Notes under the pieces: generated by a model
Databases searched by the model: none
What the model was told of the DNA's origin: nothing
Seen by the model: only the letters and a program-made list of their open reading frames with translations
NCBI GenBank assembly: GCA_965205065.1
Contig: CBDBFT010000001.1
Coordinates: 1,817,782-1,881,781, forward strand
Source of the DNA: Candidatus Poribacteria bacterium
GTDB lineage: Bacteria; Poribacteria; WGA-4E; WGA-3G
Direction of reading: 5' to 3'
Length of the DNA stretch: 64,000 bases
Shown: positions 9,843-23,619 of the stretch, in pieces
Numbering within the stretch: position 1 is the first letter of the stretch
Layout of the letters: each line of letters begins with the position of its first letter
Translations under genes and position numbers: made by a program

Positions 9843-12800
9843 ATGGACTCTGTAGTGCAGCATATAGACGCAATTCATATCAGTGATCTTCAACCCGGTA
9901 CGACTCTGATAGACAAATACCAAAATACAGAACGCGTAATCCGTCAAGTACAGAAATTCAATACATCCGTGCGACTCTATTTTGAGAATGATATTGAACC
10001 GTTTACCTATTCTTTTGAAGAATTCCGATCGCGGTTTGAAATTGTCTCAGATGCTTTCCAAGCGGATGCGAATTTGGTGAGGTTGGTTGCTGAGGCACAT
10101 CGGTTGCGTCATGCTTATCTGTTCAATCCAATCTTTGCAACGGAAACATCGCTAATTGATCCGTTACCACATCAATTTATTGCTGTCTATGATCATTTAC
10201 TGAAACATTTCCCACTGCGTTTTCTCTTAGCTGACGATGCTGGTGCTGGTAAAACGATTATGACAGGACTCTACATCCAAGAGTTGTTATTGCGGCAACA
10301 GGTAGAACGCGTACTGATTGTACCACCAGCGGGTCTGATTGGTAACTGGGAACGTGAATTACGGGTATGTTTCCGACTCCAATTCTCTATACTGACAAGT
10401 GCTGATGCTGCACACACAAACCCTTTTGTTGATAGGCAAAATCGTTTAGCCATTGTAAGTCTTGATACATTACGACAGGAACGAATGCAGGAATGTCTTT
10501 TTGAAGCACAATCTTACGATCTGATTGTTTTTGATGAGGCACACAAATTATCTGCGAATTATGAGTCGGATGGAACGGTTAGGAAATCAAAACGGTACGA
10601 ACTTGCCGAAAAAATTGCTGCACAGGAAAAGAATTTACTACTGCTGACAGCAACGCCTCACATGGGTAAAGATGATGCCTACTATTTCTTGTGGCGACTA
10701 CTCTTGCCTGAACACCTTGCTGCACAAAAAGCCTTTAGTCGGATGTCTGAGAGTGAGAAGTCAAATCACTTACTCCGACGTATGAAGGAGGAGATGGTTA
10801 ACTTTGAAGGACAACCTATTTACCCGCCACGATATAGTCGGACTATTGCTTATCCGTTGAAGCAGGGAGAAATTAGTGAACAATCCTTATACGATGCTGT
10901 TACAGAGTATTGTGAAACCTATTTCGATCTCGCTGGACAATACAACCGGATGGCGGCAAAAATGGCAATGATGGTACTACAAAGACGACTTGCCAGTTCG
11001 ACGTCTGCACTATTGCAGAGTCTTATCAGACGTGAGGAAAAACTTCAAACCACCCTTCGTGAACTGCATGATGGCAGGTTGTCAGAAGATGGATTAGAAA
11101 GAGCACAAGCGAGTATTTCAGGCATTGACATCAGAGCAGAAAAAACAGGGGATGAGGAAGAGCCCGTTGATGGAAAAGAAGAAGCAGAACAGGTTGACGA
11201 AGATCTTGAGCGTGCAACAGCTGCGCGTTCAATTAACGAGCTTGAAAGTGAAATTTCCCATGTTAAAAAACTCGTTGAACATGCAAGAAAAGTGTTCAAT
11301 CTAAAATCTGAAAGTAAGTTTGAAAAACTGTGGGAGGCGTTAACAGACTATCAAGACGAAAAAGTTTTGATTTTTACCGAGCATCGTGATACGATGAACT
11401 TCGTCATAGAAAGATTAGAGGCTTTAGGTTATACTGACAAAGTTGCTCAAATCCACGGTGGCATGAAATATAGTGAACGGGAAGAACAGGTAGAGTTTTT
11501 TCGCGACCCAGATGGTGCGCGATACCTCGTGGCAACGGATGCTGCTGGCGAAGGTATTAACTTACAATTCTGTTGGCTCATGGTGAACTACGATATTCCT
11601 TGGAACCCCGCTCGACTTGAACAACGAATGGGAAGGATTCACCGTTATAAGCAGAAGCACACAGTGGTTTTGCTAAACCTTGTAGCTCAAGATACCCGTG
11701 AAGGGCGCGTGTTGAAAGTGTTACTGGACAAATTGGAAAAGATGCGCGAAGAATTGGATGATGATAAAGTTTTTGATGTTATTGGACAACAATTTAGCGA
11801 AATTTCTCTGTCTGATCTCATCACAAAAGCCATCATAGAGAATCAAGCGGATGCCTCAATTCAGACCCTTAACAATCAATTGGAAAATATACAAAATCAG
11901 ATTGAAGGGCAGCAAAACTTGGTAACCAATAGCGAAGTGAAACGATTACTTGACAACGTTCAGGAGCAAAGAGAAGCTGCAGAGACGCGTCGTATGCTAC
12001 CCGCTTATGTTAGAGGATTCTTTGAAGATGCAGCACCTTTACTCGGTTATCGTATTGAAGGTGATATAGAGACGACTTTTAAACTAAAACCTTGTCCGGA
12101 CTTTGTAGAAGATGTCTTTGAAAAACATCATGGTCAGCAAGATCATCTAACATTCTCACGGGAACTTGCTCTACCCGCTGAAACCGAGAAACTATCGGCA
12201 ATTTTCGTTCACCCTGGCGAATCAATCTTTGATACAATCCGCACTCAGTTTTTGGAGAAATACAACGCAGAAGGTGACCGTGGTGCAGTCTATTTCGATC
12301 CGCAAACTGATGAATCTTATCTGTTCTATTTGGTCAGAGTACCTATCGTGCGAAAAACTGATGAAACCCGTCAAAACCTTGAAGACATGTTGGTCGGAAT
12401 TAAACGTTTTGCAGATGGACGTTGTGAAGAAACACCAGCCCATCTGTTATTGACGTTAATACCACGAACAACAAAGCAGAGCATTCCTACAACGTTATCC
12501 TCTGAATGGTTTAACTTGACAAATGAAGTTGAACCCGTTAAAACTTTCGTAAGGGATAATTTTGGTGTTCCCAAACTTTCTCATATCCGTGATGGTCTTC
12601 AGTCCGAATTGGAATATAGGAGAATACAGATCCAAATTTCAAGTAACCTGCGAAAATCGGAACTGCTTGAACAAAGACGTAAACTCAAAGATGCCGTTGC
12701 CAGAGGAATACCTGCAGCACAGACAAAATTGAACAACTGTGAACGTGAATATAAAGAACTTGATAAAAAACGTCGGGAAGCAGAAGCGAGACTCGTTGAT

Positions 12801-13259
12801 GAAATAGAAAACATGCAATTAGGACCTGTAAATACCCATGTTCGTGCCTTTGTTACACCACCTCCTGTTGAAGCGGCGCAAACAAAAACACTTCGGGATG
12901 CCGAAACTATTGCGATCAGGACTGCCCTTGAATATGAAATAAATAATGGGGCAGAGGTTAAGGATGTCTCCAATCCAAATCTCAAAAAAGGATTTGATCT
13001 GCAATCCAGATATCCAAACGGTGAGGTGCGATATATAGAAGTTAAAGGTCGGACAGGGGTTACGAACGTTGAATTGACAGCGAATGAATGGCGACAAGCT
13101 GCAAATCACCGTAACCGCTACTGGCTTTATGTGGTTTATAATTGTGACACTGAACCACAAGTATACGGATGTCAAGATCCTTTTGGGAAATTAATTGCGA
13201 AGGCCAGAGGAAGTTTCATTATTAACGCCAGTGAAATTATTAACAATCAAGAATTGTAA
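9843..13259 (+). CDS. SNF2-family helicase with a C-terminal DUF3883-like (PD-(D/E)xK-type) nuclease domain
   Basis: Motif I LLADDAGAGKT, motif II FDEAHKL (DEAH), motif III LLLTATP, motif VI QRMGRIHRYKQ. The C-terminal ~150 aa (GEVRYIEVKGRTGVTNVELTANEWRQAANHRNRYWLYVVYNC) resemble DUF3883 / restriction-endonuclease-like cores. Confidence 0.85.
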   Translation: MDSVVQHIDAIHISDLQPGTTLIDKYQNTERVIRQVQKFNTSVRLYFENDIEPFTYSFEEFRSRFEIVSDAFQADANLVRLVAEAHRLRHAYLFNPIFATETSLIDPLPHQFIAVYDHLLKHFPLRFLLADDAGAGKTIMTGLYIQELLLRQQVERVLIVPPAGLIGNWERELRVCFRLQFSILTSADAAHTNPFVDRQNRLAIVSLDTLRQERMQECLFEAQSYDLIVFDEAHKLSANYESDGTVRKSKRYELAEKIAAQEKNLLLLTATPHMGKDDAYYFLWRLLLPEHLAAQKAFSRMSESEKSNHLLRRMKEEMVNFEGQPIYPPRYSRTIAYPLKQGEISEQSLYDAVTEYCETYFDLAGQYNRMAAKMAMMVLQRRLASSTSALLQSLIRREEKLQTTLRELHDGRLSEDGLERAQASISGIDIRAEKTGDEEEPVDGKEEAEQVDEDLERATAARSINELESEISHVKKLVEHARKVFNLKSESKFEKLWEALTDYQDEKVLIFTEHRDTMNFVIERLEALGYTDKVAQIHGGMKYSEREEQVEFFRDPDGARYLVATDAAGEGINLQFCWLMVNYDIPWNPARLEQRMGRIHRYKQKHTVVLLNLVAQDTREGRVLKVLLDKLEKMREELDDDKVFDVIGQQFSEISLSDLITKAIIENQADASIQTLNNQLENIQNQIEGQQNLVTNSEVKRLLDNVQEQREAAETRRMLPAYVRGFFEDAAPLLGYRIEGDIETTFKLKPCPDFVEDVFEKHHGQQDHLTFSRELALPAETEKLSAIFVHPGESIFDTIRTQFLEKYNAEGDRGAVYFDPQTDESYLFYLVRVPIVRKTDETRQNLEDMLVGIKRFADGRCEETPAHLLLTLIPRTTKQSIPTTLSSEWFNLTNEVEPVKTFVRDNFGVPKLSHIRDGLQSELEYRRIQIQISSNLRKSELLEQRRKLKDAVARGIPAAQTKLNNCEREYKELDKKRREAEARLVDEIENMQLGPVNTHVRAFVTPPPVEAAQTKTLRDAETIAIRTALEYEINNGAEVKDVSNPNLKKGFDLQSRYPNGEVRYIEVKGRTGVTNVELTANEWRQAANHRNRYWLYVVYNCDTEPQVYGCQDPFGKLIAKARGSFIINASEIINNQEL

Positions 13260-13339
13260 GAGTGCTCTATTCTTTCAATTTACCTAACTATATGGAAACG
13301 TCTTAGTCTGCTATAGAATCAGAAGATAACAAAAACAAT

Positions 13340-14410
13340 ATGAGATTACGAAAAGGGAAAACTAAAAATATACTTGAAGGTTCAATTAATGCTGCTTTGT
13401 TAGCAGTTGAAGTCTATAACAAACCTCGTACAACATTCCGCAGCCAAGCATATATTGTTTTAATGATTATCGCGTGGACACGTCTATTCCATGCTTACTT
13501 TAACAAAACCATTGGCGATAAATATTACTACAAAGAAAAAAATGGACGTTATAGAATAATTGATGGGGAGCGAAAAGCCTGGGGACTCAGGGATTGTATT
13601 AAAGAATACGGGGACCTTAGTGAACCTGTAAAAGAAAATCTCAATTTTTTCATCGGTTTAAGGAATAAAATAGAACACCGTAACGTGACAGAAAAAGAGG
13701 TAGATATATTAATTTTTGGAGAATGTCAATCCCTTCTCTATAACTATGAAAATCTCTTAATAGAGATTTTCGGTGAAGAGTATGCATTGAACGAAAACTT
13801 AGCTTTTTCACTTCAGTTTTCGTCTATGCGTACAGACGAACAGAAACAAGCAAACAAAAAGGTCTTATCAGCAGAAGCACAAAAAATAAAAAGTTATATT
13901 GATAATTACCGAACCGCTCTTGTTGATGATGTATACAATACTCAAGAATTTAGTATCAAACTTATCCAGATTCCTAAGGTATCTAATACTAATAGGTACG
14001 ATTTGGCAATAGAGTTTATACGAGAAGATGAGTTTGATCCAGATACACTTGAGAGTATTACTACAATCATTAAAGAAAAGCGTGTATTGGTAGAAGCAAA
14101 AAACGTTGATGGAATCCTTCCGGGTCAAGTCGTAACAGAAGTAAGAGAAAGAATTAATGTTGATTTTGTAATGCATGATCATACATGCCTTCGTACTATA
14201 TTCTCAATTAGACCCCTTGGGAAAGATCCAGAACCTAATAAAACTAATGTTAATTATTGTGTTTACGATCAGACTCATAAAGATTACATTTATCTGAATA
14301 GTTGGGTGGACTTCATTGTGAAACTCTATGAGAAGTACGGTCTAACGAAAGAGATAATTCGCCAAGCATACAATGCAGATGAGAAATGGGATATCAACAA
14401 ATATTCATGA
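13340..14410 (+). CDS. Hypothetical 356-aa protein with a HEPN-like motif (GLRNKIEHR); possibly the DUF3780-position gene of DUF1156/DUF499 systems
   Basis: Clean ATG ORF sitting tightly between the helicase and methyltransferase genes. An R-N-x3-H motif (FFIGLRNKIEHRN) lies in a predicted helical N-terminal half. No other recognisable catalytic motif. Confidence 0.5.
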   Translation: MRLRKGKTKNILEGSINAALLAVEVYNKPRTTFRSQAYIVLMIIAWTRLFHAYFNKTIGDKYYYKEKNGRYRIIDGERKAWGLRDCIKEYGDLSEPVKENLNFFIGLRNKIEHRNVTEKEVDILIFGECQSLLYNYENLLIEIFGEEYALNENLAFSLQFSSMRTDEQKQANKKVLSAEAQKIKSYIDNYRTALVDDVYNTQEFSIKLIQIPKVSNTNRYDLAIEFIREDEFDPDTLESITTIIKEKRVLVEAKNVDGILPGQVVTEVRERINVDFVMHDHTCLRTIFSIRPLGKDPEPNKTNVNYCVYDQTHKDYIYLNSWVDFIVKLYEKYGLTKEIIRQAYNADEKWDINKYS

Positions 14411-14453
14411 AACTCACTATAGGTTCTTAAATCAAAATAAAAAAGGAACATTA

Positions 14454-17387
14454 ATGCCCCGTAGACTCATTGAGGAGGCCTTCCCACTGCAAAAGGTTTC
14501 CGAAGACTCAAAGCATGAAAAGAATGTCCGCCACGGACACATCTCCACGTTACACATCTGGCCGGCGCGGCGACCACTCGCAGCATGTCGAGCTGTAACG
14601 ATAGCAACATTGCTACCAGACCCTGCTGATGCTCCTCCAAAAATCAAGGAAGAGTACACCCGTCTTTCCGGCTCGCCTTTGCCTGAAAAACAACGAGAAT
14701 ATTTGTGTAACGACTTAATTGCTTCGTTGACTCGGTGGGGAGACGAAAATGGACACGGTGATTGGGACAGAATAGATAGTAAAGGACGTTGGTTGAATAA
14801 ACTGCGAATTGTCAGAGAACTGATTAAGTTGGCTTACAATGGACATACACCGAAGGTCTTGGATATGTTTGCGGGTGGTGGTGCAATTCCGCTTGAAGCG
14901 ATGCGCCTCGGTTGTGAAGTCTTCGCAAACGACTATAATCCGGTTGCATGGTTTCTGCTCAAATGTACGCTTGAATATCCGCAGCGTCTCGCCGGAAAAA
15001 CCACACTCCTCCCTGAACTCAATCTTGATGAACGTCCTAATTTGAACAAAGGCAATCTTGCTGACCATGTTCGCTTGTGGGGACAATGGGTTTTGGAAAA
15101 TGCACAGAAGGAACTTGTAGAATATTATCCAGTGATTAATGAAAAACCAACGGTCGCCTATCTCTGGGCAAGAACAATTCCGTGCCAAGATCCACGATGC
15201 GGGGCGACGATTCCATTGCTTAAGACACTATGGTTATGCAAGAAGGCGGAGAAAAACCTTAAGAATACGCCCGAGAATATGGACCGCCCTGACTTCCTCA
15301 GAATCAAGGAAACACGCAACCAAACGAAAATCATCATCAATGCAAGACGTGCCCTCAAGCTCTGTCTAGACTCTGAGACGAAGTGTGTCCGATTTGAAAT
15401 TTTAGCACCAAGAAATGTAGAGGATGTGGGTAAACCCACGATGTTAGATGCAACGGCAACCTGTCCGTTTTGCGATTCACAGCAGCCAAAAGACTATATC
15501 AAACGATGTGGACATGAGGGCAAACTCAAGGCACAGATGACCTCAGTCGTTTATCAAGAAGAATACGGCAAGGAATATCGTCTACCCACACAAGAAGAAA
15601 TCGATAAAGCAGAAATACCAAAAGAAGTATTGGAAGCAGTTGCTAATCAGATTCCAAGCGGGATGCCTCATGAAGTATTGCCAAAAAGTGACACATCGGG
15701 GGCAGGTCGAGCATTTTCAGTACCACTTTATGGTTTCAAAGAATGGTCAGATCTATTCACAAATAGGCAGTTGTTGACATTAATGACATTTGTGAAGTGG
15801 ACACGGACAGTTAGAAAAGAGATTCAGAAGGTTAATTATTCTCAAGAATGGCTGGAGGCAATTGATAAGTATTTAGCAATAAATATTGATAGACTTGCTA
15901 CTTATAGTTCAATGCTTTCGATCTGGGTTGTGATTGGTGAATGTCAAGGTCAAACTTTCAGTCGTTACGCCCTACCTATAACTTGGGATTTCTCTGAAAT
16001 TAATCCATTTTCAGATAGCACGGGCAATTTTTTAGGAGGACTGGACTGGATTCAACGTTTTCTGGAACATGCCTTGAAAATCAAGAACAAATGCGTTCCA
16101 TGGATTAATCAACAATCGAGTCGGGATCTAGAAGGTCAAATTGTTGACACGATTATCACTGATCCTCCCTATTATGACGCAATCCCTTATGCAGATATTT
16201 CCGATTTCTTTTATGTATGGCTCCGTCGATCAATCGGCGACCACTTTCCTAATGTATTCAATGATTCACTTACACCGAAGTTGGACGAGTTAATACAACA
16301 TTCCGGACGCTTCAACAATAACAAAATAGTTGCTAAGGAATTTTACGAGAAAGGCATGGCGGAAAGCTTCCAATCAGCACATGATTTACTATCTAATGGT
16401 GGGCGAATAATGATAGTATTTGCTCATAAAGATCCGGATGCTTGGGAAACATTAGTAACAGCTATGATTCAAGCAGGTCTTGTTGTTACAGCATCTTGGC
16501 CGATTGATACAGAAAGATCTGGTAGGTTAAGATCCCGAGGATCAGCTGCTCTTTCCACCTCGCTTTGGCTCGTCTGTAGAAAACGACACATTAACTCTAA
16601 ACCTGGGCACTATGGTAAAGTCAAGAATGAAATGCAGAAGCGAATTACCGAACGTCTACGTTATTTTTGGGACGTGGGAATCCGAGGTCCTGATTTTGTC
16701 TGGGCAGCAATTGGACCGGCATTGGAAAGTTACTCAAGTTACAAAGAAGTTAGGCGACAGACAGGTGAACCTTTCACGGTAACCGAATTTCTCACAGAGG
16801 TGCGGCGTCTTGTAACTGACTTTGCGTTGGGACAGATTCTTCACGGGGCAAGCACGGAAGCATTGGACGAATGGACCCGCTACTATCTAATGCACAAGGA
16901 CTACTTCGGTACGGAGGATGCACCCGTAGGTGAGTGTATTCTATTGGCACAAGGATATGGAGTCCCGCTTGATGATTTAAGGTCAGCACAAATCGGATTT
17001 CTGAAGAAAGCTCGTTCAGGTAATGCACTCAAATTGCTTGGACATAAAGACCGGACATCAGACCGGGTTGGTTACACGCACACGTCAGGAAGAATCCCGA
17101 TGATAGACATGATCCATCGAATCATGAAACTTTGGGACGAGGGTGAAAGCGCGCAAATCAATGCCTACTTTCACGAGCATGGATTGCAAGAAAACGCGCT
17201 TTTTAAAGCTGTCGTGCAAGCACTCATTGAAACGAATGCTCAAGGTTCCAGTGAAAGATCACTTTTGGAGACACTTATCAATTATCAGCCAGGGGAATTA
17301 GTTAGTACTGTTGCTGGTTCTGGGAAATCGGATGCTGGCGTAGTTCAGCAACAACTTCCACTTGGCAAAATTTCAACAGATTCGTAA
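14454..17387 (+). CDS. DUF1156-family (COG1743) DNA methyltransferase with DPPY motif and zinc ribbon
   Basis: N-terminus MPRRLIEEAFPLQKVSEDSKHEKNVRHGHISTLHIWPARRPLAACRA is the DUF1156 signature. SAM-binding LDMFAGGGAIPLEAMRLGCEVFANDYNPVA. Catalytic TDPPYYDAIPY. Cys cluster CPFCDSQ...CGHEG. The ATG at 14454 has an upstream AAAAGGAA ribosome-binding site; the tool ORF starts at an upstream TTG/ATG inside the previous gene's end. Confidence 0.85.
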   Translation: MPRRLIEEAFPLQKVSEDSKHEKNVRHGHISTLHIWPARRPLAACRAVTIATLLPDPADAPPKIKEEYTRLSGSPLPEKQREYLCNDLIASLTRWGDENGHGDWDRIDSKGRWLNKLRIVRELIKLAYNGHTPKVLDMFAGGGAIPLEAMRLGCEVFANDYNPVAWFLLKCTLEYPQRLAGKTTLLPELNLDERPNLNKGNLADHVRLWGQWVLENAQKELVEYYPVINEKPTVAYLWARTIPCQDPRCGATIPLLKTLWLCKKAEKNLKNTPENMDRPDFLRIKETRNQTKIIINARRALKLCLDSETKCVRFEILAPRNVEDVGKPTMLDATATCPFCDSQQPKDYIKRCGHEGKLKAQMTSVVYQEEYGKEYRLPTQEEIDKAEIPKEVLEAVANQIPSGMPHEVLPKSDTSGAGRAFSVPLYGFKEWSDLFTNRQLLTLMTFVKWTRTVRKEIQKVNYSQEWLEAIDKYLAINIDRLATYSSMLSIWVVIGECQGQTFSRYALPITWDFSEINPFSDSTGNFLGGLDWIQRFLEHALKIKNKCVPWINQQSSRDLEGQIVDTIITDPPYYDAIPYADISDFFYVWLRRSIGDHFPNVFNDSLTPKLDELIQHSGRFNNNKIVAKEFYEKGMAESFQSAHDLLSNGGRIMIVFAHKDPDAWETLVTAMIQAGLVVTASWPIDTERSGRLRSRGSAALSTSLWLVCRKRHINSKPGHYGKVKNEMQKRITERLRYFWDVGIRGPDFVWAAIGPALESYSSYKEVRRQTGEPFTVTEFLTEVRRLVTDFALGQILHGASTEALDEWTRYYLMHKDYFGTEDAPVGECILLAQGYGVPLDDLRSAQIGFLKKARSGNALKLLGHKDRTSDRVGYTHTSGRIPMIDMIHRIMKLWDEGESAQINAYFHEHGLQENALFKAVVQALIETNAQGSSERSLLETLINYQPGELVSTVAGSGKSDAGVVQQQLPLGKISTDS

Positions 17388-17421
17388 GATATCAAGTTAC
17401 GACAATTAGAGGGGCAAGTCC

Positions 17422-20400
17422 ATGGACAAAAATGTATGGTATGAACATTGTAAATTGAGAGATGATGTGCGGAAGGACAAGCTTGAACTCTCAGAATTCG
17501 CAGCAGACCTCTATGCTGTGCGTATGAAGAACGCACCAGAAGTCTATCAATCCCCCAATCTCTTTTTTGACCGAACCTATCCGACCTACAAACTTAAAAC
17601 GTTAGTGCGAGATGTCCTTCGACGTTTAGCTGACGAGGGTGGAACCCCTGTTATTACGGTTCAAGTTGCTTACGGTGGCGGAAAGACCCACGCACTGATT
17701 GCGCTCTTACACTTAGCTGAACAAGGTCATGAATTCCAAACGCATACCACCGTGCGTGAGTTTATGTTGTTTAGTGGTTTAGATGCGGTGCCTAACGCGA
17801 GAGTGGCACTCCTTCCTTTTGATAAATTTGACGTGAAAAACGGACTGTCTGTGATAGGTCCAGGGGGTAAATCACGACAAGTAAAAACGCCGTGGGGAGC
17901 GTTGGCATACCAACTTGCTGGCGATGTAGGATTTGCAATGGTCGCTAAACATGAAGCAGACTATATCAATCCTGCTGAACAGACGCTTGTTGAGCTAATT
18001 AAAGCACCACAGAAGGATAATCTATCCACACTCATTTTACTTGATGAAGCATTGATGTATACGCGCGCGGCTGTGAATGACGATTCAAAGCGTATCGGTA
18101 TCCTTCATGATTTTTTCCAAGCACTAACACAGGCAGTTGATAAGGTTGATAGAGCTGCAATCGTGGCAAGCCTCATCACCTCCAATATTATTGCTAACGA
18201 TCCGACCGGTATTAGCGTACTGGATATGTTGGAAGGGGTATTTCGTCGTTTGGAAGAATCCGTTGAACCCGTTTCCCGATCAGATGTTTCAGAATTGCTC
18301 CGAAGGCGATTGTTTGAATCCATAGCCACAGAAGAAGAGATTCGTGCCATTGTAGATCGCCATATTGCAGCAATGCAGAAACTGCCGTTACGGGCAACTC
18401 AAAAAGATCAGGAAGCCTATGACAGACTCGTTAAATCCTATCCATTTCATCCTGATTTGATTGAGGTATTCTATCAAAAGTGGACACAACTGGATAAGTT
18501 TCAGGGAACTCGCGGCATGTTTCGGACATTTGCACTTCTTCTCAGAGATGGCGAAGGGGAAGACGAAGCTGCGTTTGTTGGGCCGAGCGCACTGTTGGGA
18601 TCTGATGACGAACTTTCGGATGCTATTCAAGAACTTATTAAAGCATGTGAAGAAGGCACCACAAAATGGACACCAATTTTAACAGGAGAACTTGATAAAG
18701 CTCGCGATATCCAAAGTACTATGCCTTTACTTAAATCTCGGGAGGCGGAAACAGCGGTATTATCCACATTTTTACATTCACAACCAATGGGGCAGAAAGC
18801 CGAATTGGCTGACCTTTACCTGCTGCTTGCCCATGCCGACATTGATGCAATGTCAGTAGAAAAAGGGATTTCCGAATGGCGCAAAGTTTCTTGGTTTCTC
18901 AAAGAAAACGATAATAGTTGGGCACTGGGAACAAATCCAAATTTAACAAGAATGCATGATCGTGCAATGGGAAGACTTACTGAAGAGCAAATAAACGAAA
19001 ATCTAACGAAAAGGATAAGAGATGCCTACCTTGGTCGAAACTCAGATAAAGTAGATTTTCACAATCTGCCCCAGTCACCTGCGGATATTTCAGACAACAC
19101 CGATCTTCACTTTGTGATTGCTGGTCCTGAATTGACAGCAGTCCCAGGTGAAGAGGTTTCCAAGAATTTAGCAGCGTTTTTTGATAGAACCTACAGTAAC
19201 AACGTCATCGTCCTTGCACCTGAAAACTCACTATTGGCAGGATTGCGGCAACGGATTCGTAGGATTCTTGGATGGGAGAATATTGAAAGCGGCGACGATA
19301 TGGATATGCTGAATAAGAATGAACCTTTGATAGAATTGCTAAAGCAGCGCAAAGAAGAGGATGGATCCGGTATTACAGAATCTGTCATATCCGCTTATAG
19401 TGTGCTGATAGCTTTAGACGAAGATGGGGAAATCAAAGCACATGCATTGTCGCCAGGGGCGGAATTACCTTTTGAGCGGGTGAAAGAATTTTTGGTAAAA
19501 CAGGATAGATTACTGACAACTTCACTGGATCCGTATTTACTCACACCAGAAAGTTATTTTGAGTTGTGGGGAGAAGATGATACTGCTAAACCAGTTCAAG
19601 AGTTGTATGGTATGTTTGCCAATCTATCCCGACTTTCTCGGATGTTGAATAGACAAGTATTTGTTGACACTCTTCAGCGCGGCGTTACGGACGGTAAGAT
19701 TGTGCTACGTACTGTGCGTGGAGATGGATCTCATCAGACTTTCTGGCGTGAAGTACCTACTGATGAGAATTTTAAGGAAAAATCGTTAGAAATTGTTCCA
19801 CTTGAACATGCTGAACTGCATAATCTGAGTCCTGAGTTATTGCTTTCTGATAAATTACCTGAAGTCTGGCAAGGAGAAAACGGCACAACGACGGTAGGAA
19901 CAATTCGGGAATTCTTTGAAGGAAATATAGCACCTAAACTGGCATCTGACGACATTCTGTTTGATGCAATTAAGTCTGCAGTTCAGAACGGTTTGTTGAT
20001 GGCACGGCTCAAAGACAAGGCATATCTTAAAGAGAACATACCTGACATTGAAATTAATGACGATTTGGAATTACTCGCTCCGTTAAAATCAATTAGCGGA
20101 TCGGAGATTGGTCATAAAACCTTGTCTGATGCATGGGAAAACGAAACTACATCCATTTCCAAAATTATGGACGCATTGGCAGTGAGCAAAGGCACACCGA
20201 TTCCGTGGTCTTTGATTCATGCTGCAGTCAATGATGGTTTATCAAAAAACTTGTTTGAATTTACTGAAGATAGTCCTATATGGCCTTGTAGTGTAAACGA
20301 AGCAGATAAAGTCGGTTTGAAGGTTTCAAAAGCCCCTGTGAAGATAGCTCCGAAGGATCTTATTGGAAATGATGCTGAAGATGCTTGGGAATCTGGACAA

Positions 20401-20772
20401 CCTACACTTGGATTAATTAAAGAGACACTTGAGAAAAAAAGAGGAATTACTATTACTGATGAAGTGTTTCGCTATGCAGTTGAAGAAGCAATCAGAATTG
20501 GAATGATTGCTTCAGAAGATTCATTAATTAATGGATTTTACAATGTTCGTGTGCGGCAACCTAAGTGGATGCGTCATACAGATTCTCATCTTACAGATAT
20601 GGAAATTCAAGATCTACCTGAAACAGTTGCCGATTTGTTTGAAATAGCCCCTGAACTTGATTTTAAATATCGCATTACAATTACTGCTGAAGGTGATCAA
20701 CCTTCAGATGAGGTGTTGAAAGAGATCAATGAGGCACTTCAGAAGGTTACAGAGGAATTGAAATTTGATTAA
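17422..20772 (+). CDS. DUF499-family (COG1483) P-loop ATPase, BrxC/PglY-like
   Basis: N-terminal region EFAADLYAV...PNLFFDRTYPTYKLKTL...VITVQVAYGGGKTHALIALLHL matches the DUF499 N-terminus and its Walker-A variant GGGKTH. Walker B-like LILLDEALMY. Length 1116 aa, typical for BrxC-like proteins. Confidence 0.8.
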   Translation: MDKNVWYEHCKLRDDVRKDKLELSEFAADLYAVRMKNAPEVYQSPNLFFDRTYPTYKLKTLVRDVLRRLADEGGTPVITVQVAYGGGKTHALIALLHLAEQGHEFQTHTTVREFMLFSGLDAVPNARVALLPFDKFDVKNGLSVIGPGGKSRQVKTPWGALAYQLAGDVGFAMVAKHEADYINPAEQTLVELIKAPQKDNLSTLILLDEALMYTRAAVNDDSKRIGILHDFFQALTQAVDKVDRAAIVASLITSNIIANDPTGISVLDMLEGVFRRLEESVEPVSRSDVSELLRRRLFESIATEEEIRAIVDRHIAAMQKLPLRATQKDQEAYDRLVKSYPFHPDLIEVFYQKWTQLDKFQGTRGMFRTFALLLRDGEGEDEAAFVGPSALLGSDDELSDAIQELIKACEEGTTKWTPILTGELDKARDIQSTMPLLKSREAETAVLSTFLHSQPMGQKAELADLYLLLAHADIDAMSVEKGISEWRKVSWFLKENDNSWALGTNPNLTRMHDRAMGRLTEEQINENLTKRIRDAYLGRNSDKVDFHNLPQSPADISDNTDLHFVIAGPELTAVPGEEVSKNLAAFFDRTYSNNVIVLAPENSLLAGLRQRIRRILGWENIESGDDMDMLNKNEPLIELLKQRKEEDGSGITESVISAYSVLIALDEDGEIKAHALSPGAELPFERVKEFLVKQDRLLTTSLDPYLLTPESYFELWGEDDTAKPVQELYGMFANLSRLSRMLNRQVFVDTLQRGVTDGKIVLRTVRGDGSHQTFWREVPTDENFKEKSLEIVPLEHAELHNLSPELLLSDKLPEVWQGENGTTTVGTIREFFEGNIAPKLASDDILFDAIKSAVQNGLLMARLKDKAYLKENIPDIEINDDLELLAPLKSISGSEIGHKTLSDAWENETTSISKIMDALAVSKGTPIPWSLIHAAVNDGLSKNLFEFTEDSPIWPCSVNEADKVGLKVSKAPVKIAPKDLIGNDAEDAWESGQPTLGLIKETLEKKRGITITDEVFRYAVEEAIRIGMIASEDSLINGFYNVRVRQPKWMRHTDSHLTDMEIQDLPETVADLFEIAPELDFKYRITITAEGDQPSDEVLKEINEALQKVTEELKFD

Positions 20773-21065: not shown

Positions 21066-21482
21066 TTAAATAATGATACCAAGTTCGGTTTTCCCGATTT
21101 TTAAGATGTCATAAACGTACCCATTGATGCGAAATCTCGCAAATAAGGCGATCGTTAGATTTACCATTTCCACACTCTTCGAAACGATAATAGACTTGCG
21201 CTTAAAACGCCCAAACCAATGCCGCATCAAACAATTGTTGCGTTCAATACCGTGCGTTTCTGCTTTGTCCTGAACTAACTTATCTTTGGGCAGAACCGAT
21301 TCATAAACCTGATAGTTATCCGTATAATAAACCTTCACATCCCATTTTTCCAAACGAGTCATTAGTTTCTTCAATGTCGCTTTATCCCGATCACCACACT
21401 CCCAGGCAATAAGTTCTCCAGTATCACGACACAAAGCTTTCCATATCCAGAGTTTCTGCTTTTTTTTTTCAAATAGTGCCAC
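21066..21482 (-). CDS. insB: IS1-family InsB (catalytic part; produced as an InsAB' fusion by -1 frameshifting)
   Basis: Overlaps insA in the -1 frame at the A-run. Length and position are typical of IS1 InsB. Confidence 0.7.
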   Translation of the reverse strand: MALFEKKKQKLWIWKALCRDTGELIAWECGDRDKATLKKLMTRLEKWDVKVYYTDNYQVYESVLPKDKLVQDKAETHGIERNNCLMRHWFGRFKRKSIIVSKSVEMVNLTIALFARFRINGYVYDILKIGKTELGIII

Positions 21483-21856
21483 ATCTCATCAAGTTCAAGC
21501 ACGACAGTATCGGTTTCCTGGGGTTCAGGGGGTTTCGCATGTTCAGCACCGAATTTTCTTATCCATTCAAGGATAGTGGAAGGGGAGGCTTGAAGCATTT
21601 TTGCGATGGCGTTCATAGAAAGTCCATGGCAATAGAGAAAAACTGCAAGTGCTTTCTCAGCAAGGGGTCTTCCCCGGTATGTGTGGTTTTCTGTCCACTG
21701 ATAGTTGCAATCTTTACATTTATACCTTTGTTTATCGTTGACGCGTCCATTTTTGACGAAGTGTGGGTGTTGACATCTTGGGCAATTCATGTGAGTTTCC
21801 TCCTGATGGGTGTATAGGTTTACTTTTAGCATAGTCTGCTTTTTTATATGTGTCAA
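21371..21856 (-). CDS. insA: IS1-family InsA (zinc-finger/HTH regulator, N-terminal part of the transposase)
   Basis: CPRCQHPHFVKNGRVNDKQRYKCKDCNYQW zinc finger; the remainder is similar to IS1 InsA. Confidence 0.75.
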   Translation of the reverse strand: MTHIKKQTMLKVNLYTHQEETHMNCPRCQHPHFVKNGRVNDKQRYKCKDCNYQWTENHTYRGRPLAEKALAVFLYCHGLSMNAIAKMLQASPSTILEWIRKFGAEHAKPPEPQETDTVVLELDEMWHYLKKKSRNSGYGKLCVVILENLLPGSVVIGIKRH

Positions 21857-22406: not shown

Positions 22407-23420
22407 CTATTCCTGCTGAGTATTCCCTTTAAACACAGCATATAGATACCAAAAGGCTGGTGCTAATACCACACCACCAACTATGATAATAATCAATACA
22501 GGCATTAGCACTGAATCTGGAGCAGCAGAATTCGAAAAATTAAGGTTCGGTGCTACAAGGTAAGGATACTGTGCGAAACCCCACCCCAGAATTACCAATG
22601 ATACTTGTATAGGTACAAGAATTCGGGCAAACTGATAATAGCGGGTCCAAATCGTATAGATTGCTGCAATAGAAGTGACGCCTGTTAAGATATGAAAAGG
22701 TATTGACCAGAAACTATTACCTAATCCTTGTCGGATTGTAGGGGCACCCTTAGTAGAGAGTAAAAAACTAATGCCTGCTATAATACCTACACTGATTGCT
22801 GCAATGAGAGCACGCAAACGAAAATCTTCCTGCAATGCTATATCTTCAGTTTCAAGCGTCAGATATACCGCCGCCGTCAATGCACACAGCGTTAAAGTGA
22901 AAAAACCTATGGCAATCGGAAATGGAGCAAACCACGATGAAAAATAATCTGTAGCAACAGCACCTGTTTCAATATCTACAAGAATCGTGCCTGATGCAAC
23001 CGCACCCAGATTAATGCCTAACATGATCGGGGTGATGATGCTCCCAATAGCGAACACACGACTCCACTTCGTTTGTGTTGTATCCGATTGATCATCGTAG
23101 GTTCGGAAAACGAATGCAGTACCTCGTAGAACAATGCCAATTAGCATAAGGGTTAGCGGTATATGTAAAGCAGTACCGATTGTAGCAAATGCCAAAGGAA
23201 AAGCAACGAATAGAAGTACCACTATCACGATAAGCCAGACATGATTCGCTTCCCATATCGGTGCTATAGCGTTTTTTATGAGTTCACGTTGGGTTTTTGC
23301 TCTCGGACCAATCGCAAACATATCCCAGATGCCACCACCAAAGTCAGCACCACCTGTTAGCATATAGATAATTAGTGAGATTAACATCACACCTGCTATC
23401 GCAATCTCATAACTCATCAT
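22407..23420 (-). CDS. cydB: Cytochrome bd-type quinol oxidase subunit II
   Basis: NAIAPIWEANHVWLIVIVVLLFVAFPLAFA... aligns closely with E. coli CydB ([31 protein letters not shown]...). Multi-pass membrane protein of ~337 aa. The start is probably the MMSYE ATG at 23420. Confidence 0.8.
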   Translation of the reverse strand: MMSYEIAIAGVMLISLIIYMLTGGADFGGGIWDMFAIGPRAKTQRELIKNAIAPIWEANHVWLIVIVVLLFVAFPLAFATIGTALHIPLTLMLIGIVLRGTAFVFRTYDDQSDTTQTKWSRVFAIGSIITPIMLGINLGAVASGTILVDIETGAVATDYFSSWFAPFPIAIGFFTLTLCALTAAVYLTLETEDIALQEDFRLRALIAAISVGIIAGISFLLSTKGAPTIRQGLGNSFWSIPFHILTGVTSIAAIYTIWTRYYQFARILVPIQVSLVILGWGFAQYPYLVAPNLNFSNSAAPDSVLMPVLIIIIVGGVVLAPAFWYLYAVFKGNTQQE

Positions 23421-23619
23421 GCCGATGTTTCTCATTATCGTACTTAACCATAAAAAGAGCATTACGGTTATAGTGAGGTGATTTCATGAATTGTCAATTC
23501 TCAATTATTCTCATTTACATAACAATTCTAACAGGAATTAGTCATGTGTGCAACGATTTATCATCTATACGCATTCATCTTGATTATTGCTGTAGCACAT
23601 TCTGTTAGATTGTGCTTCT

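What the first reader, a model, noticed from the sequence alone, without database searches (positions are those of the whole stretch)
9843..20772. BREX-related helicase-methylase-ATPase block (SNF2-DUF3883 / DUF1156 MTase / DUF499 ATPase) with an extra HEPN-like gene inserted
DUF1156 (COG1743) DPPY methyltransferases, DUF499 (COG1483, BrxC/PglY-like) ATPases and SNF2 helicases were predicted to form an R-M/BREX-like defence system that, as far as I know, remains essentially uncharacterised. This instance is complete and co-directional, with tiny intergenic gaps. It carries a fourth gene between helicase and methylase whose product has an RNx3H HEPN-like motif, i.e. a possible RNase toxin/abortive-infection arm added to a modification-based system.
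Basis: partly seen in the sequence, partly recalled or inferred. Interest (0 to 1): 0.75.

Follow-up and report, generated by a model that had tools for sequence, protein, structure and literature searches.

The report
Hma defence operon with embedded HEPN gene
This is a complete copy of an already named bacterial anti-phage system (Hma, also called a Type-1 BREX-related system) with a separate, exchangeable single-gene HEPN defence candidate (PADLOC PDC-S19) lodged between two of its genes; this arrangement has already been catalogued, so the locus is ordinary.

Summary
There are four co-directional ORFs at 9843-20772: an SNF2 helicase with a NOV_C/DUF3883 nuclease, a 356-aa DUF3644 protein, a DUF1156 DPPY methyltransferase and a DUF499 ATPase.

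The three large genes are a textbook Hma system (PADLOC HmaA 3e-189, HmaB 1.6e-133, HmaC 9e-100). Hma was named in 2021 and reclassified in 2026 as a Type-1 DUF499-centred BREX-related system.

It is not a fixed fourth subunit:
- Of the 80 best species-level loci that carry it, 76 have no Hma within 10 kb and one close relative follows a Type III R-M system.
- No partner gene is conserved.
- Sister Hma loci hold Septu, Septu plus this gene, an IS-disrupted copy, or an unrelated ORF in the same hmaA-hmaB slot.

Embedding of defence genes in Hma is published (62.7% of Hma systems). It is a new member of a known kind and of low interest. What remains open is experimental: the Hma methylation motif, and the activity and trigger of PDC-S19.

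The parts
9762..9789 (+). Best sigma-70-like promoter match (TTGACA-16-TAAAAT, 11/12), 54 nt upstream of hmaA. It is the candidate promoter for the whole operon.
   Evidence: This is a consensus match only. No convincing + strand terminator-like site lies in an intergenic gap.
9843..13259 (+). hmaA: SNF2-family helicase/translocase (GAGKT aa 134-138, DEAH aa 231-234) with a C-terminal NOV_C/DUF3883 PD-(D/E)xK nuclease (D1052 ... E1066-V-K1068). It is the predicted restriction effector.
   Evidence: SNF2-rel_dom, Helicase_C, NOV_C 3.5e-21. (PADLOC HmaA 3.3e-189, aa 71-1115). (motif positions). The nuclease residues are matched by eye, not by alignment, to the D/E/K residues mutated in PMC11232893.
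13336..14444 (+). Embedded cassette. The gene at 13340-14410 encodes a 356-aa DUF3644/EC042_2821-family protein (PADLOC PDC-S19). It has an N-terminal HEPN domain (about aa 1-195, RNKIEH at nt 13661-13678) and a conserved C-terminal domain (about aa 196-356). GC is 0.34, against 0.42-0.44 for the hma genes.
14373..17387 (+). hmaB: DUF1156 N6-adenine DNA methyltransferase (FAGGG aa 166-170, DPPY aa 597-600). The real start is probably the ATG at 14454. The segment at about 15580-16580 is hypervariable between orthologues and is the presumed target-recognition region.
   Evidence: DUF1156 3.5e-20; HmaB 1.6e-133.. (no blastn HSP over about 15860-16410 in L001/L003/L004; 52-68% nt identity to L001).
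17422..20772 (+). hmaC: DUF499 ORC/Cdc6-type AAA+ ATPase (Walker A GGGKTH aa 85-90, Walker B-like LLDE aa 206-209). It has no N-terminal HEPN fusion.
   Evidence: DUF499 7.6e-22; HmaC 8.9e-100, aligned from aa 5. (all 120 closest relatives listed are 1088-1122 aa).

Best explanation
The block is a three-gene Hma system (also called a Type-1 DUF499-centred BREX-related R-M-like system), made up of hmaA, hmaB and hmaC. A separately evolving single-gene HEPN defence candidate (DUF3644/EC042_2821 family, PADLOC PDC-S19) is embedded in the hmaA-hmaB slot. All four genes are probably co-transcribed.

Inferred mechanism of Hma:
- HmaC is the AAA+ scaffold and loader. It recruits the DUF1156 adenine methyltransferase HmaB to mark host DNA at a short asymmetric motif.
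- HmaA translocates on unmarked invader DNA with its SNF2 motor and nicks or cleaves it with its C-terminal PD-(D/E)xK domain.

Inferred role of the embedded protein: it is an autonomous second layer. Its HEPN domain (R108/H113) would cut RNA once an unknown trigger is sensed, probably through the fast-evolving C-terminal domain, giving an abortive-infection type backup.

Shown here: gene identities, motifs, the HEPN fold, the autonomy of the HEPN gene, and cassette turnover in the slot. Inferred: all enzymatic activities, co-transcription, and the division of labour.
For: **Hma identity**
- Full-length PADLOC matches to HmaA, HmaB and HmaC, with the matching Pfam domains and intact catalytic motifs.

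**HEPN identity**
- DUF3644 scores 192.9 bits against a cut-off of 27.6.
- R108 is present in 47/48 and H113 in 48/48 diverse relatives.

**Autonomy of the HEPN gene**
- 391 species-level loci encode a relative. Of the best 80, only L001, L003 and L004 have hmaA-S19-hmaB-hmaC; the other 76 have no Hma within 10 kb.
- The largest neighbour cluster covers only 6 loci.
- The immediate neighbours are a mix: R-M methylases (N6_N4 5, HsdM 4, Eco57I 2), Shedu, integrases and housekeeping genes.
- L002 carries a 68%-identical copy behind a Type III Mod/Res pair. Nucleotide homology to the window is limited to 13336-14444.
- GC dips at the gene in the window, L001 and L003.

**Slot turnover within the same Hma lineage (HmaC 74-83% identical)**
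- Septu only in L081.
- An unrelated 281-aa ORF in L082.
- Septu plus an IS-split S19 in L083.
- Septu plus S19 in L004.

**Literature**
- Hma naming (PMC8565338) and embedding statistics (10.1101/2024.01.29.577857).
- HmaA nickase-dependent defence against T4 (PMC11232893).
- The Type-1 BR model (PMC12839542).
- ATPase-loaded hemimethylation in the Type-2 sister system MANTIS (10.64898/2026.09.23.753747).
Against: - No experiment exists for this locus or for any PDC-S19 member; no paper in the searched library mentions PDC-S19.
- Within this Hma lineage the HEPN gene has diverged about as much as the hma genes. Against L003 the identities are 66% versus 62-69%. It always sits immediately upstream of hmaB in five loci. 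A lineage-specific functional link is therefore not excluded.
- All S19-bearing Hma loci have a HEPN-less HmaC, which would fit substitution for the HEPN that is fused to HmaC in 1370 of 2446 Type-1 BR taxa (PMC12839542). However, all 120 closest HmaC relatives listed are HEPN-less, whether or not S19 is present.
- HmaB overexpression did not change T4 sensitivity in the only Hma test (PMC11232893). The R-M-like model for Type 1 rests on analogy with Type 2.
Confidence: 0.8

Rival explanations
1. The HEPN protein is a functionally integrated fourth component of this Hma lineage. It would act in trans as a suicide RNase, activated by or guarding HmaA/B/C, and would replace the Swt1-type HEPN domain that more than half of Type-1 BR systems carry fused to the N-terminus of the DUF499 ATPase.
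For: - HmaC here and in every S19-bearing sister locus lacks the N-terminal HEPN.
- S19 lies directly upstream of hmaB in the window, L001, L003, L004 and L083.
- It has diverged to a similar degree as the hma genes.
- At least 14 of the top 120 HmaC clusters share a contig with a top S19 cluster, judged by matching contig lengths.
- The family recurs next to DNA-modification systems: Type I, Type III, Type IIG and Hma.
Against: - 76 of 80 loci lack Hma.
- Sister Hma loci work the slot without it: L081 and L082.
- One copy is IS-disrupted while hmaA, hmaB and hmaC stay intact.
- It belongs to a different HEPN family (EC042_2821/DUF3644) from the fused one (Swt1/Abi2 type, PMC3710099).
- A close copy sits behind a Type III R-M system instead.
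- HEPN-less HmaC is the state of the whole lineage, not only of the S19 carriers.
Confidence: 0.13
2. The 356-aa protein is not an active nuclease. It would be a regulator or DNA-binding accessory, as in the HEPN-fold regulator MtlR, that controls expression of the hma operon.
For: - The C-terminal domain has no solved structural relative in the listed matches and no obvious catalytic triad.
- The gene sits inside an operon.
Against: - The RNx3H motif, with N27, N100, Q130 and N135, is invariant or nearly so across 48 relatives down to 27% identity. That is the signature of catalytically active HEPN RNases.
- The gene occurs in many unrelated contexts with no common target operon.
- Two embedded copies look inactivated: IS-split in L083, and with a shortened ORF in L004. 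That fits a costly effector better than a regulator.
Confidence: 0.04
3. The block is a canonical BREX or DISARM system, not Hma.
For: HmaA also matches the DrmD (1.2e-106) and BrxHI/HII (3e-98) models, and HmaB weakly matches PglX (2.4e-9).
Against: - The best matches, by wide margins, are the Hma models.
- No ORF scanned between 4479 and 34228 matches a PglZ, BrxA/B/L or DrmA/B/C family.
- DUF1156 and NOV_C are the Hma/Type-1 BR hallmarks (PMC12839542).
Confidence: 0.02

Closest known systems
Hma system (Payne et al. 2021, PMC8565338), also called the Type-1 DUF499-centred BREX-related system (Rakesh & Krishnan 2026, PMC12839542)
   Same: It has the same three proteins in the same order and orientation: an SNF2 helicase with C-terminal NOV_C nuclease, a DUF1156 adenine MTase and a DUF499 AAA+ ATPase. 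It also has embedded gene(s) between the hma genes, as in 62.7-66.5% of known Hma loci.
   Different: Nothing essential differs. This copy has the HEPN-less HmaC variant and carries PDC-S19, not the commoner Septu, in the hmaA-hmaB slot.
PADLOC PDC-S19 / Pfam DUF3644 / the EC042_2821 HEPN family (Anantharaman et al. 2013, PMC3710099)
   Same: The protein matches the PDC-S19 HMM over its full length (1.6e-135). It has HEPN with Rx4H followed by a C-terminal domain of about 160-180 aa, and the family tends to sit in or next to R-M operons.
   Different: The window protein lacks the N-terminal wHTH extension of about 100 aa that some relatives have. Its own match to the EC042_2821 REase-like Pfam model is sub-threshold (E 0.24).
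HEC-08 (Hma-embedded HEPN protein validated in E. coli, bioRxiv 10.1101/2024.01.29.577857)
   Same: It is a single gene embedded in Hma with an N-terminal HEPN domain. Its HEPN histidine is essential for defence, and its best structural match is the same HepT toxin, SO_3166.
   Different: No sequence relationship is detectable (hhalign probability 0.13). HEC-08 has Cys-rich zinc-ribbon C-terminal domains, which are absent here. HEC-08 does not hit Pfam DUF3644 at E<1 in the current library.
MANTIS / Gao_RL (Type-2 BR system, bioRxiv 10.64898/2026.09.23.753747)
   Same: It combines a DUF499 AAA+ ATPase, an N6-adenine MTase and a helicase-nuclease. It supplies the mechanistic template of ATPase-loaded hemimethylation of asymmetric sites followed by motor-nuclease restriction.
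   Different: MANTIS needs a DUF3870 co-factor (MtsB) and uses a PLD nuclease. Hma has neither, and uses a PD-(D/E)xK NOV_C domain.
Ishtar anti-plasmid HEPN proteins (bioRxiv 10.64898/2026.07.06.735840)
   Same: They are stand-alone single-gene proteins with an N-terminal HEPN (DUF4145 or DUF3644) and a C-terminal domain of unknown function.
   Different: The 15 Ishtar homologues sampled are 164-261 aa long. A profile-profile comparison aligns only the RNxxEH helix (probability 20%). Acinetobacter and Rubrobacter PDC-S19 accessions are absent from the Ishtar homologue table.

Membership tests
Hma / Type-1 BR system | SNF2-family helicase carrying a C-terminal NOV_C (DUF3883) PD-(D/E)xK nuclease | tested here: met
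   Pfam SNF2-rel_dom, Helicase_C and NOV_C 3.5e-21. PADLOC HmaA 3.3e-189 over aa 71-1115. D1052, E1066 and K1068 are present.
Hma / Type-1 BR system | DUF1156-type N6-adenine methyltransferase with a DPPY motif | tested here: met
   DUF1156 3.5e-20. HmaB 1.6e-133. DPPY at aa 597-600.
Hma / Type-1 BR system | DUF499 AAA+ ATPase with Walker A and B motifs | tested here: met
   DUF499 7.6e-22. HmaC 8.9e-100. GGGKTH at aa 85-90 and LLDE at aa 206-209.
Hma / Type-1 BR system | The three genes lie on one strand with at most three embedded genes between neighbours (the PADLOC rule quoted in 10.1101/2024.01.29.577857) | tested here: met
   One embedded gene lies between hmaA and hmaB, and none between hmaB and hmaC.
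Hma / Type-1 BR system | Anti-phage activity and methylation of self DNA | not testable with these tools
   This needs phage challenge and methylome sequencing.
BREX sensu stricto | PglZ phosphatase together with BrxC and PglX | tested here: not met
   No ORF scanned between 4479 and 34228 matches a PglZ family. The PglX match of HmaB is only 2.4e-9.
DUF3644 / EC042_2821 HEPN family (PDC-S19) | Match to the family profile above the curated threshold | tested here: met
   PF12358, 192.9 bits against a cut-off of 27.6. PDLC04950 1.6e-135, aa 1-346 of the protein against positions 1-347 of the 353-position model.
DUF3644 / EC042_2821 HEPN family (PDC-S19) | HEPN fold with a conserved Rx4-6H motif | tested here: met
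DUF3644 / EC042_2821 HEPN family (PDC-S19) | C-terminal EC042_2821-type REase-fold domain (about 180 aa) | tested here: inconclusive
   PF18740 is hit by 7 of 48 relatives at E<=0.1, best 0.0022. The window protein scores E 0.24. No D...(D/E)xK triad is seen among the columns conserved at >=90%. No structural match for this domain appears in the listed hits.
DUF3644 / EC042_2821 HEPN family (PDC-S19) | RNase activity and a defence phenotype | not testable with these tools
   No paper in the searched library mentions PDC-S19.
HEC-08 | HEPN followed by Cys-rich zinc-ribbon domains, with sequence similarity to WP_001313577.1 | tested here: not met
   hhalign probability 0.13. The C-terminal half here has a single conserved Cys (C307) and no CxxC pairs.
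Ishtar | Membership of the ist1/ist2 homologue family (Table S3 of 10.64898/2026.07.06.735840) | tested here: not met
   Only the catalytic helix aligns, with probability 19.6%. Accessions of PDC-S19 relatives are not in Table S3. Only 15 Ishtar sequences were sampled, and the two founder sequences could not be fetched.
HepT/MntA-type HEPN toxin-antitoxin | An adjacent MNT nucleotidyltransferase antitoxin gene | tested here: not met
   The neighbours are hmaA and hmaB. No neighbour family is conserved across 76 loci, and no nucleotidyltransferase appears among the 25 commonest neighbour families.

The most novel reading that the evidence does not exclude
The DUF3644/EC042_2821 protein may be a 'guard' specialised for DNA-modification-based immunity. 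Its fast-evolving C-terminal REase-like domain would sense failure or inhibition of the host R-M-like system, for example by anti-restriction proteins or by unmodified or nicked DNA. It would then unleash the HEPN RNase. This would explain why the same cassette hops between Hma, Type I, Type III and Type IIG operons, and why in this lineage it stays glued to the methyltransferase gene.
Probability: 0.12. Interest if true: 0.6.

Novelty: new member of a known kind. Interest (0 to 1): 0.22.

Why it matters
As it stands, the locus adds one more instance to about 1,500-2,400 catalogued Hma/Type-1 BR systems and to a PADLOC candidate family with more than a thousand members. A standard PADLOC run should label both parts.

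Its practical value is as a clean test case:
- It is a compact operon in which hmaABC and a single embedded HEPN gene can be separated.
- Natural comparators differ mainly in the HmaB target-recognition segment and the HEPN protein's C-terminal half (L001), or carry other cassettes in the same slot (L081-L083).
- Two questions remain open for the field: what motif and self/non-self logic Type-1 BR/Hma uses, and whether PDC-S19 is an active, autonomous RNase defence.

Tried and rejected
- **Source contig.** I looked for it with the look-up of encoding contigs using the exact S19 and HmaC proteins. Neither is on record, so the organism stays unidentified. The nearest loci are an uncultured-bacterium MAG and Candidatus Poribacteria MAGs.
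- **First AlphaFold model.** It was built from 30 close homologues and was too poor (pLDDT 65; Foldseek found nothing significant). I replaced it with a model from 48 diverse sequences.
- **Membership in HEC-08 and Ishtar.** Considered and rejected.
- **Toxin-antitoxin or two-gene reading of S19.** Rejected, because no neighbour family recurs.
- **Recombination sites flanking the cassette** (attC-like or long inverted repeats). Only short, chance-level repeats were found.
- **tRNA and Rfam scans of the window.** Both empty.
- **Plasmid and phage searches.** The family is rare there: 27 of 72,556 plasmids, all below 35% identity, and 2 of 50,697 phage records. A mainly plasmid- or phage-borne origin is therefore not supported.

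Full report
**1. Observation**

The gaps are 80 nt, a 38-nt overlap and 34 nt. The overlap disappears if hmaB starts at the ATG at 14454, which follows an AAGGAA and opens with MPRRLIEE, where the DUF1156 match begins.

The best promoter-like site of the region (TTGACA-16-TAAAAT) lies at 9762-9789, just upstream of the first gene. No convincing + strand terminator separates the genes.

**2. The three large genes**

Pfam gives:
- ORF 1: SNF2-rel_dom, Helicase_C and NOV_C (formerly DUF3883).
- ORF 3: DUF1156 plus methyltransferase hits.
- ORF 4: DUF499.

PADLOC gives full-length best matches to HmaA (3.3e-189), HmaB (1.6e-133) and HmaC (8.9e-100). These are far ahead of the DISARM DrmD, BREX BrxH and PglX models. 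No PglZ or other BREX or DISARM core gene was matched by any ORF scanned between 4479 and 34228.

The triad has a clear publication history:
- It was named Hma in 2021, with 1,638 instances in 26 phyla (PMC8565338).
- HmaA from Halomonas meridiana alone protects E. coli from T4. This needs the D/E/K residues of NOV_C, which nicks supercoiled DNA. HmaB overexpression had no detectable effect (PMC11232893).
- In 2026 the triad was reclassified as the Type-1 'DUF499-centred BREX-related' system. It was found in 2,446 taxa and is homologous component by component to Type-3 BREX (PMC12839542).
- The Type-2 sister system (Gao_RL, renamed MANTIS) has been reconstituted. The DUF499 ATPase loads the MTase for hemimethylation of asymmetric 6-bp sites, and a helicase-nuclease restricts unmodified DNA (bioRxiv 10.64898/2026.09.23.753747).

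**3. The fourth gene**

Family assignment:
- The 356-aa protein matches Pfam DUF3644 at 4.8e-57 (aa 11-193).
- It matches the PADLOC model PDC-S19 over its full length at 1.6e-135.
- DUF3644 was identified as a HEPN family, EC042_2821, in 2013. It was described as HEPN plus a novel REase-fold C-terminal domain of about 180 aa, sometimes with an N-terminal wHTH, occurring in R-M operons (PMC3710099).

Size and conservation:
- The family has 1,811 clusters at E<=1e-5 in the 90% database and 1,266 representatives at 50% identity.
- In 48 relatives down to 27% identity, H113, N100 and N135 are invariant, and R108, N27 and Q130 are each present in 47/48.

Structure:
- An AlphaFold model built on this alignment has pLDDT 82.6.
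- Foldseek's top hit is also SO_3166 (probability 0.97).

The HEPN call is therefore confirmed.

The C-terminal half (about aa 196-356) is conserved, with F226, R291, P292, C307, D310 and Y318 at >=90%. Its assignment is unresolved:
- It matches the Pfam EC042_2821 REase-like model only below threshold (7 of 48 relatives; window protein E 0.24).
- It shows no clear D...(D/E)xK triad.
- It has no solved structural relative in the listed matches.

**4. Fourth subunit or lodger?**

A scan of one genome per species found 391 loci that encode a relative, and the best 80 were fetched. I searched them with the window's HmaA, HmaB and HmaC proteins.
- Only L001, L003 and L004, three of the four closest relatives (65-76% identity; an uncultured bacterium and Candidatus Poribacteria), have hmaA-S19-hmaB-hmaC.
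- The other 76 (50-68% identity, many phyla) have no Hma within 10 kb. One locus (L072) gave no clean S19 ORF in the neighbour analysis.

No neighbour family recurs; the largest cluster covers 6 loci. The immediate neighbours are a mix:
- R-M methylases: N6_N4 5, HsdM 4, Eco57I 2.
- Shedu: 3.
- Integrases: 2.
- Housekeeping genes, such as metG in three Acinetobacter species.

L002 carries a 68%-identical copy directly behind a Type III Mod/Res pair. Its nucleotide homology to the window is confined to 13336-14444, from 4 nt before the start codon to 34 nt past the stop codon. That delimits the mobile unit.

The gene's GC content is 0.34, against 0.42-0.44 for the hma genes. The same dip is seen in L001 and L003.

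Close relatives of this Hma (HmaC 74-83% identical) use the same hmaA-hmaB slot differently:

| Locus | Content of the hmaA-hmaB slot |
|---|---|
| window, L001, L003 | S19 only |
| L004 | Septu PtuA/PtuB plus S19 |
| L083 | Septu plus S19 split by an IS at about aa 113-118, with hmaA, hmaB and hmaC intact |
| L081 | Septu PtuA/PtuB only |
| L082 | an unrelated 281-aa ORF with no family match |

This is the 'embedding' behaviour published for Hma: 62.7% of 1,485 systems carry embedded genes, and 96.7% of embedded genes are co-oriented (bioRxiv 10.1101/2024.01.29.577857). PMC11232893 gives 66.5%.

PDC-S19 appears to be one of the 145 untested candidates produced by that approach and released through PADLOC. 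This is inferred from its PDC name; the label was not found in the supplementary tables held.

The locus is a three-gene system plus an exchangeable single-gene module.

**5. What keeps the integrated reading alive**

- Within this lineage the HEPN gene has diverged about as much as the hma genes. Against L003 the identities are 66% versus 62-69%.
- It is always the gene immediately upstream of hmaB.
- HmaC here lacks the N-terminal Swt1-type HEPN that 1,370 of 2,446 Type-1 BR taxa carry. A trans-acting substitute is therefore conceivable.

Against that reading, all 120 closest HmaC relatives listed are HEPN-less whether or not S19 is present, and the HEPN families differ. I give the integrated reading about 13%.

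**6. Relation to validated HEPN defences**

- HEC-08, the Hma-embedded HEPN protein shown to defend E. coli (with H128 essential), is not detectably related in sequence. hhalign gives probability 0.13. HEC-08 has Cys-rich zinc-ribbon C-terminal domains and does not hit Pfam DUF3644 at E<1.
- A sample of 15 Ishtar homologues aligns only over the RNxxEH helix (probability 20%).
- Accessions of Acinetobacter and Rubrobacter PDC-S19 relatives are absent from the Ishtar homologue table.

The protein works like these (HEPN plus a variable C-terminal module, single gene) but is a member of neither family.

**7. Fine structure**

The window and L001 are syntenic from 2991 to 20772 but mosaic in identity:
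- hmaA: 90-98% nucleotide identity.
- The hmaA-S19 spacer: 100% identical.
- The first roughly 240 nt of S19: 94-98%.
- A break near 13,580, after which the rest of S19 falls to 59-77%. The minimum lies over aa 214-280.
- The HmaB segment 15580-16580: 52-68%. This segment has no blastn match at all in L001, L003 or L004.
- hmaC: alternating between 72% and 97%.

The two most diverged segments are the presumed specificity determinants, the MTase target-recognition region and the HEPN protein's C-terminal half. This is the pattern expected for defence genes under diversifying selection and recombination.

**8. Mechanism**

Shown here:
- Gene identities, intact motifs and the HEPN fold.
- The autonomy of the HEPN gene and the turnover of the slot.

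Inferred from PMC11232893, PMC12839542 and the MANTIS preprint:
- HmaC loads HmaB to methylate host DNA at an asymmetric adenine motif.
- HmaA translocates on unmodified DNA and nicks or cuts it.

Inferred for S19:
- It is an independent RNase effector, co-expressed from the same operon.
- It is triggered through its C-terminal domain and provides an abortive-infection-type second layer.

**9. Verdict**

The locus is a new member of known kinds (Hma/Type-1 BR with an embedded PDC-S19). A specialist would not be surprised. Interest is 0.22.

The most novel reading not excluded is that DUF3644/EC042_2821 proteins are guards specialised for modification-based immunity (probability about 0.12).

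Noticed in passing
window 4479-9636 (- strand): A second defence-type module is transcribed divergently from hmaA. It consists of a SIR2_2-domain protein (8566-9636) whose stop overlaps the likely ATG (8576) of a 1367-aa STAND/NACHT NTPase (4479-8582), which matches PADLOC PDC-M54A at 2e-174. In the syntenic locus L001 the orthologous STAND protein instead carries a fused N-terminal REase-type domain, and there is no nucleotide homology over 8534-9579, so the effector has been swapped. L082 also has a NACHT protein upstream of hmaA.
   Followed up: partly
window 21066-21856 (- strand): An IS1-family transposase lies immediately downstream of hmaC as two overlapping ORFs: an HTH part at 21371-21856 and a DDE_Tnp_IS1 part at 21066-21482. 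This layout is typical of the IS1 frameshifted insA/insB arrangement and probably marks the edge of the island.
   Followed up: partly
window 9579-20772 versus L001 6245-17438: The nucleotide identity is mosaic. hmaA and the hmaA-S19 spacer are 90-100% identical. There is a breakpoint near 13,580 inside the HEPN gene, after which identity falls to 59-77%. The HmaB segment at 15580-16580 is hypervariable (52-68%, with no HSP in three orthologous loci).
   Followed up: yes
L083 4737-6961; L004 6736-7811: Two Hma-embedded copies of the HEPN gene look inactivated while the hma genes stay intact. The L083 copy is split by a DDE_Tnp_1 insertion sequence at about aa 113-118, at the catalytic motif. 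The L004 copy has an ORF of only 270 aa although tblastn homology covers the full length. Assembly error cannot be excluded for L004.
   Followed up: partly
window 1-4479: No ORF in this stretch is longer than 178 aa, and that ORF has no Pfam match. Even so, 2991-4479 is about 87% identical to L001 beyond the end of the STAND gene. It could be a degraded gene or conserved non-coding DNA. There is no Rfam or tRNA hit.
   Followed up: no
window 22407-23462 (- strand): A cytochrome bd subunit II (cydB-like) gene has no cydA next to it. It is flanked by the IS1 element on one side and a + strand 115-aa ORF followed by a catalase-peroxidase-like peroxidase gene on the other.
   Followed up: no
L003 4575-6430: In the Poribacteria locus L003 a HEC-01A/HEC-01B pair (ABC ATPase plus partner, PADLOC 1.7e-162 and 2.7e-74) sits immediately upstream of hmaA. 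It is another validated 'Hma-embedded candidate', here adjacent to the system and not embedded in it.
   Followed up: no
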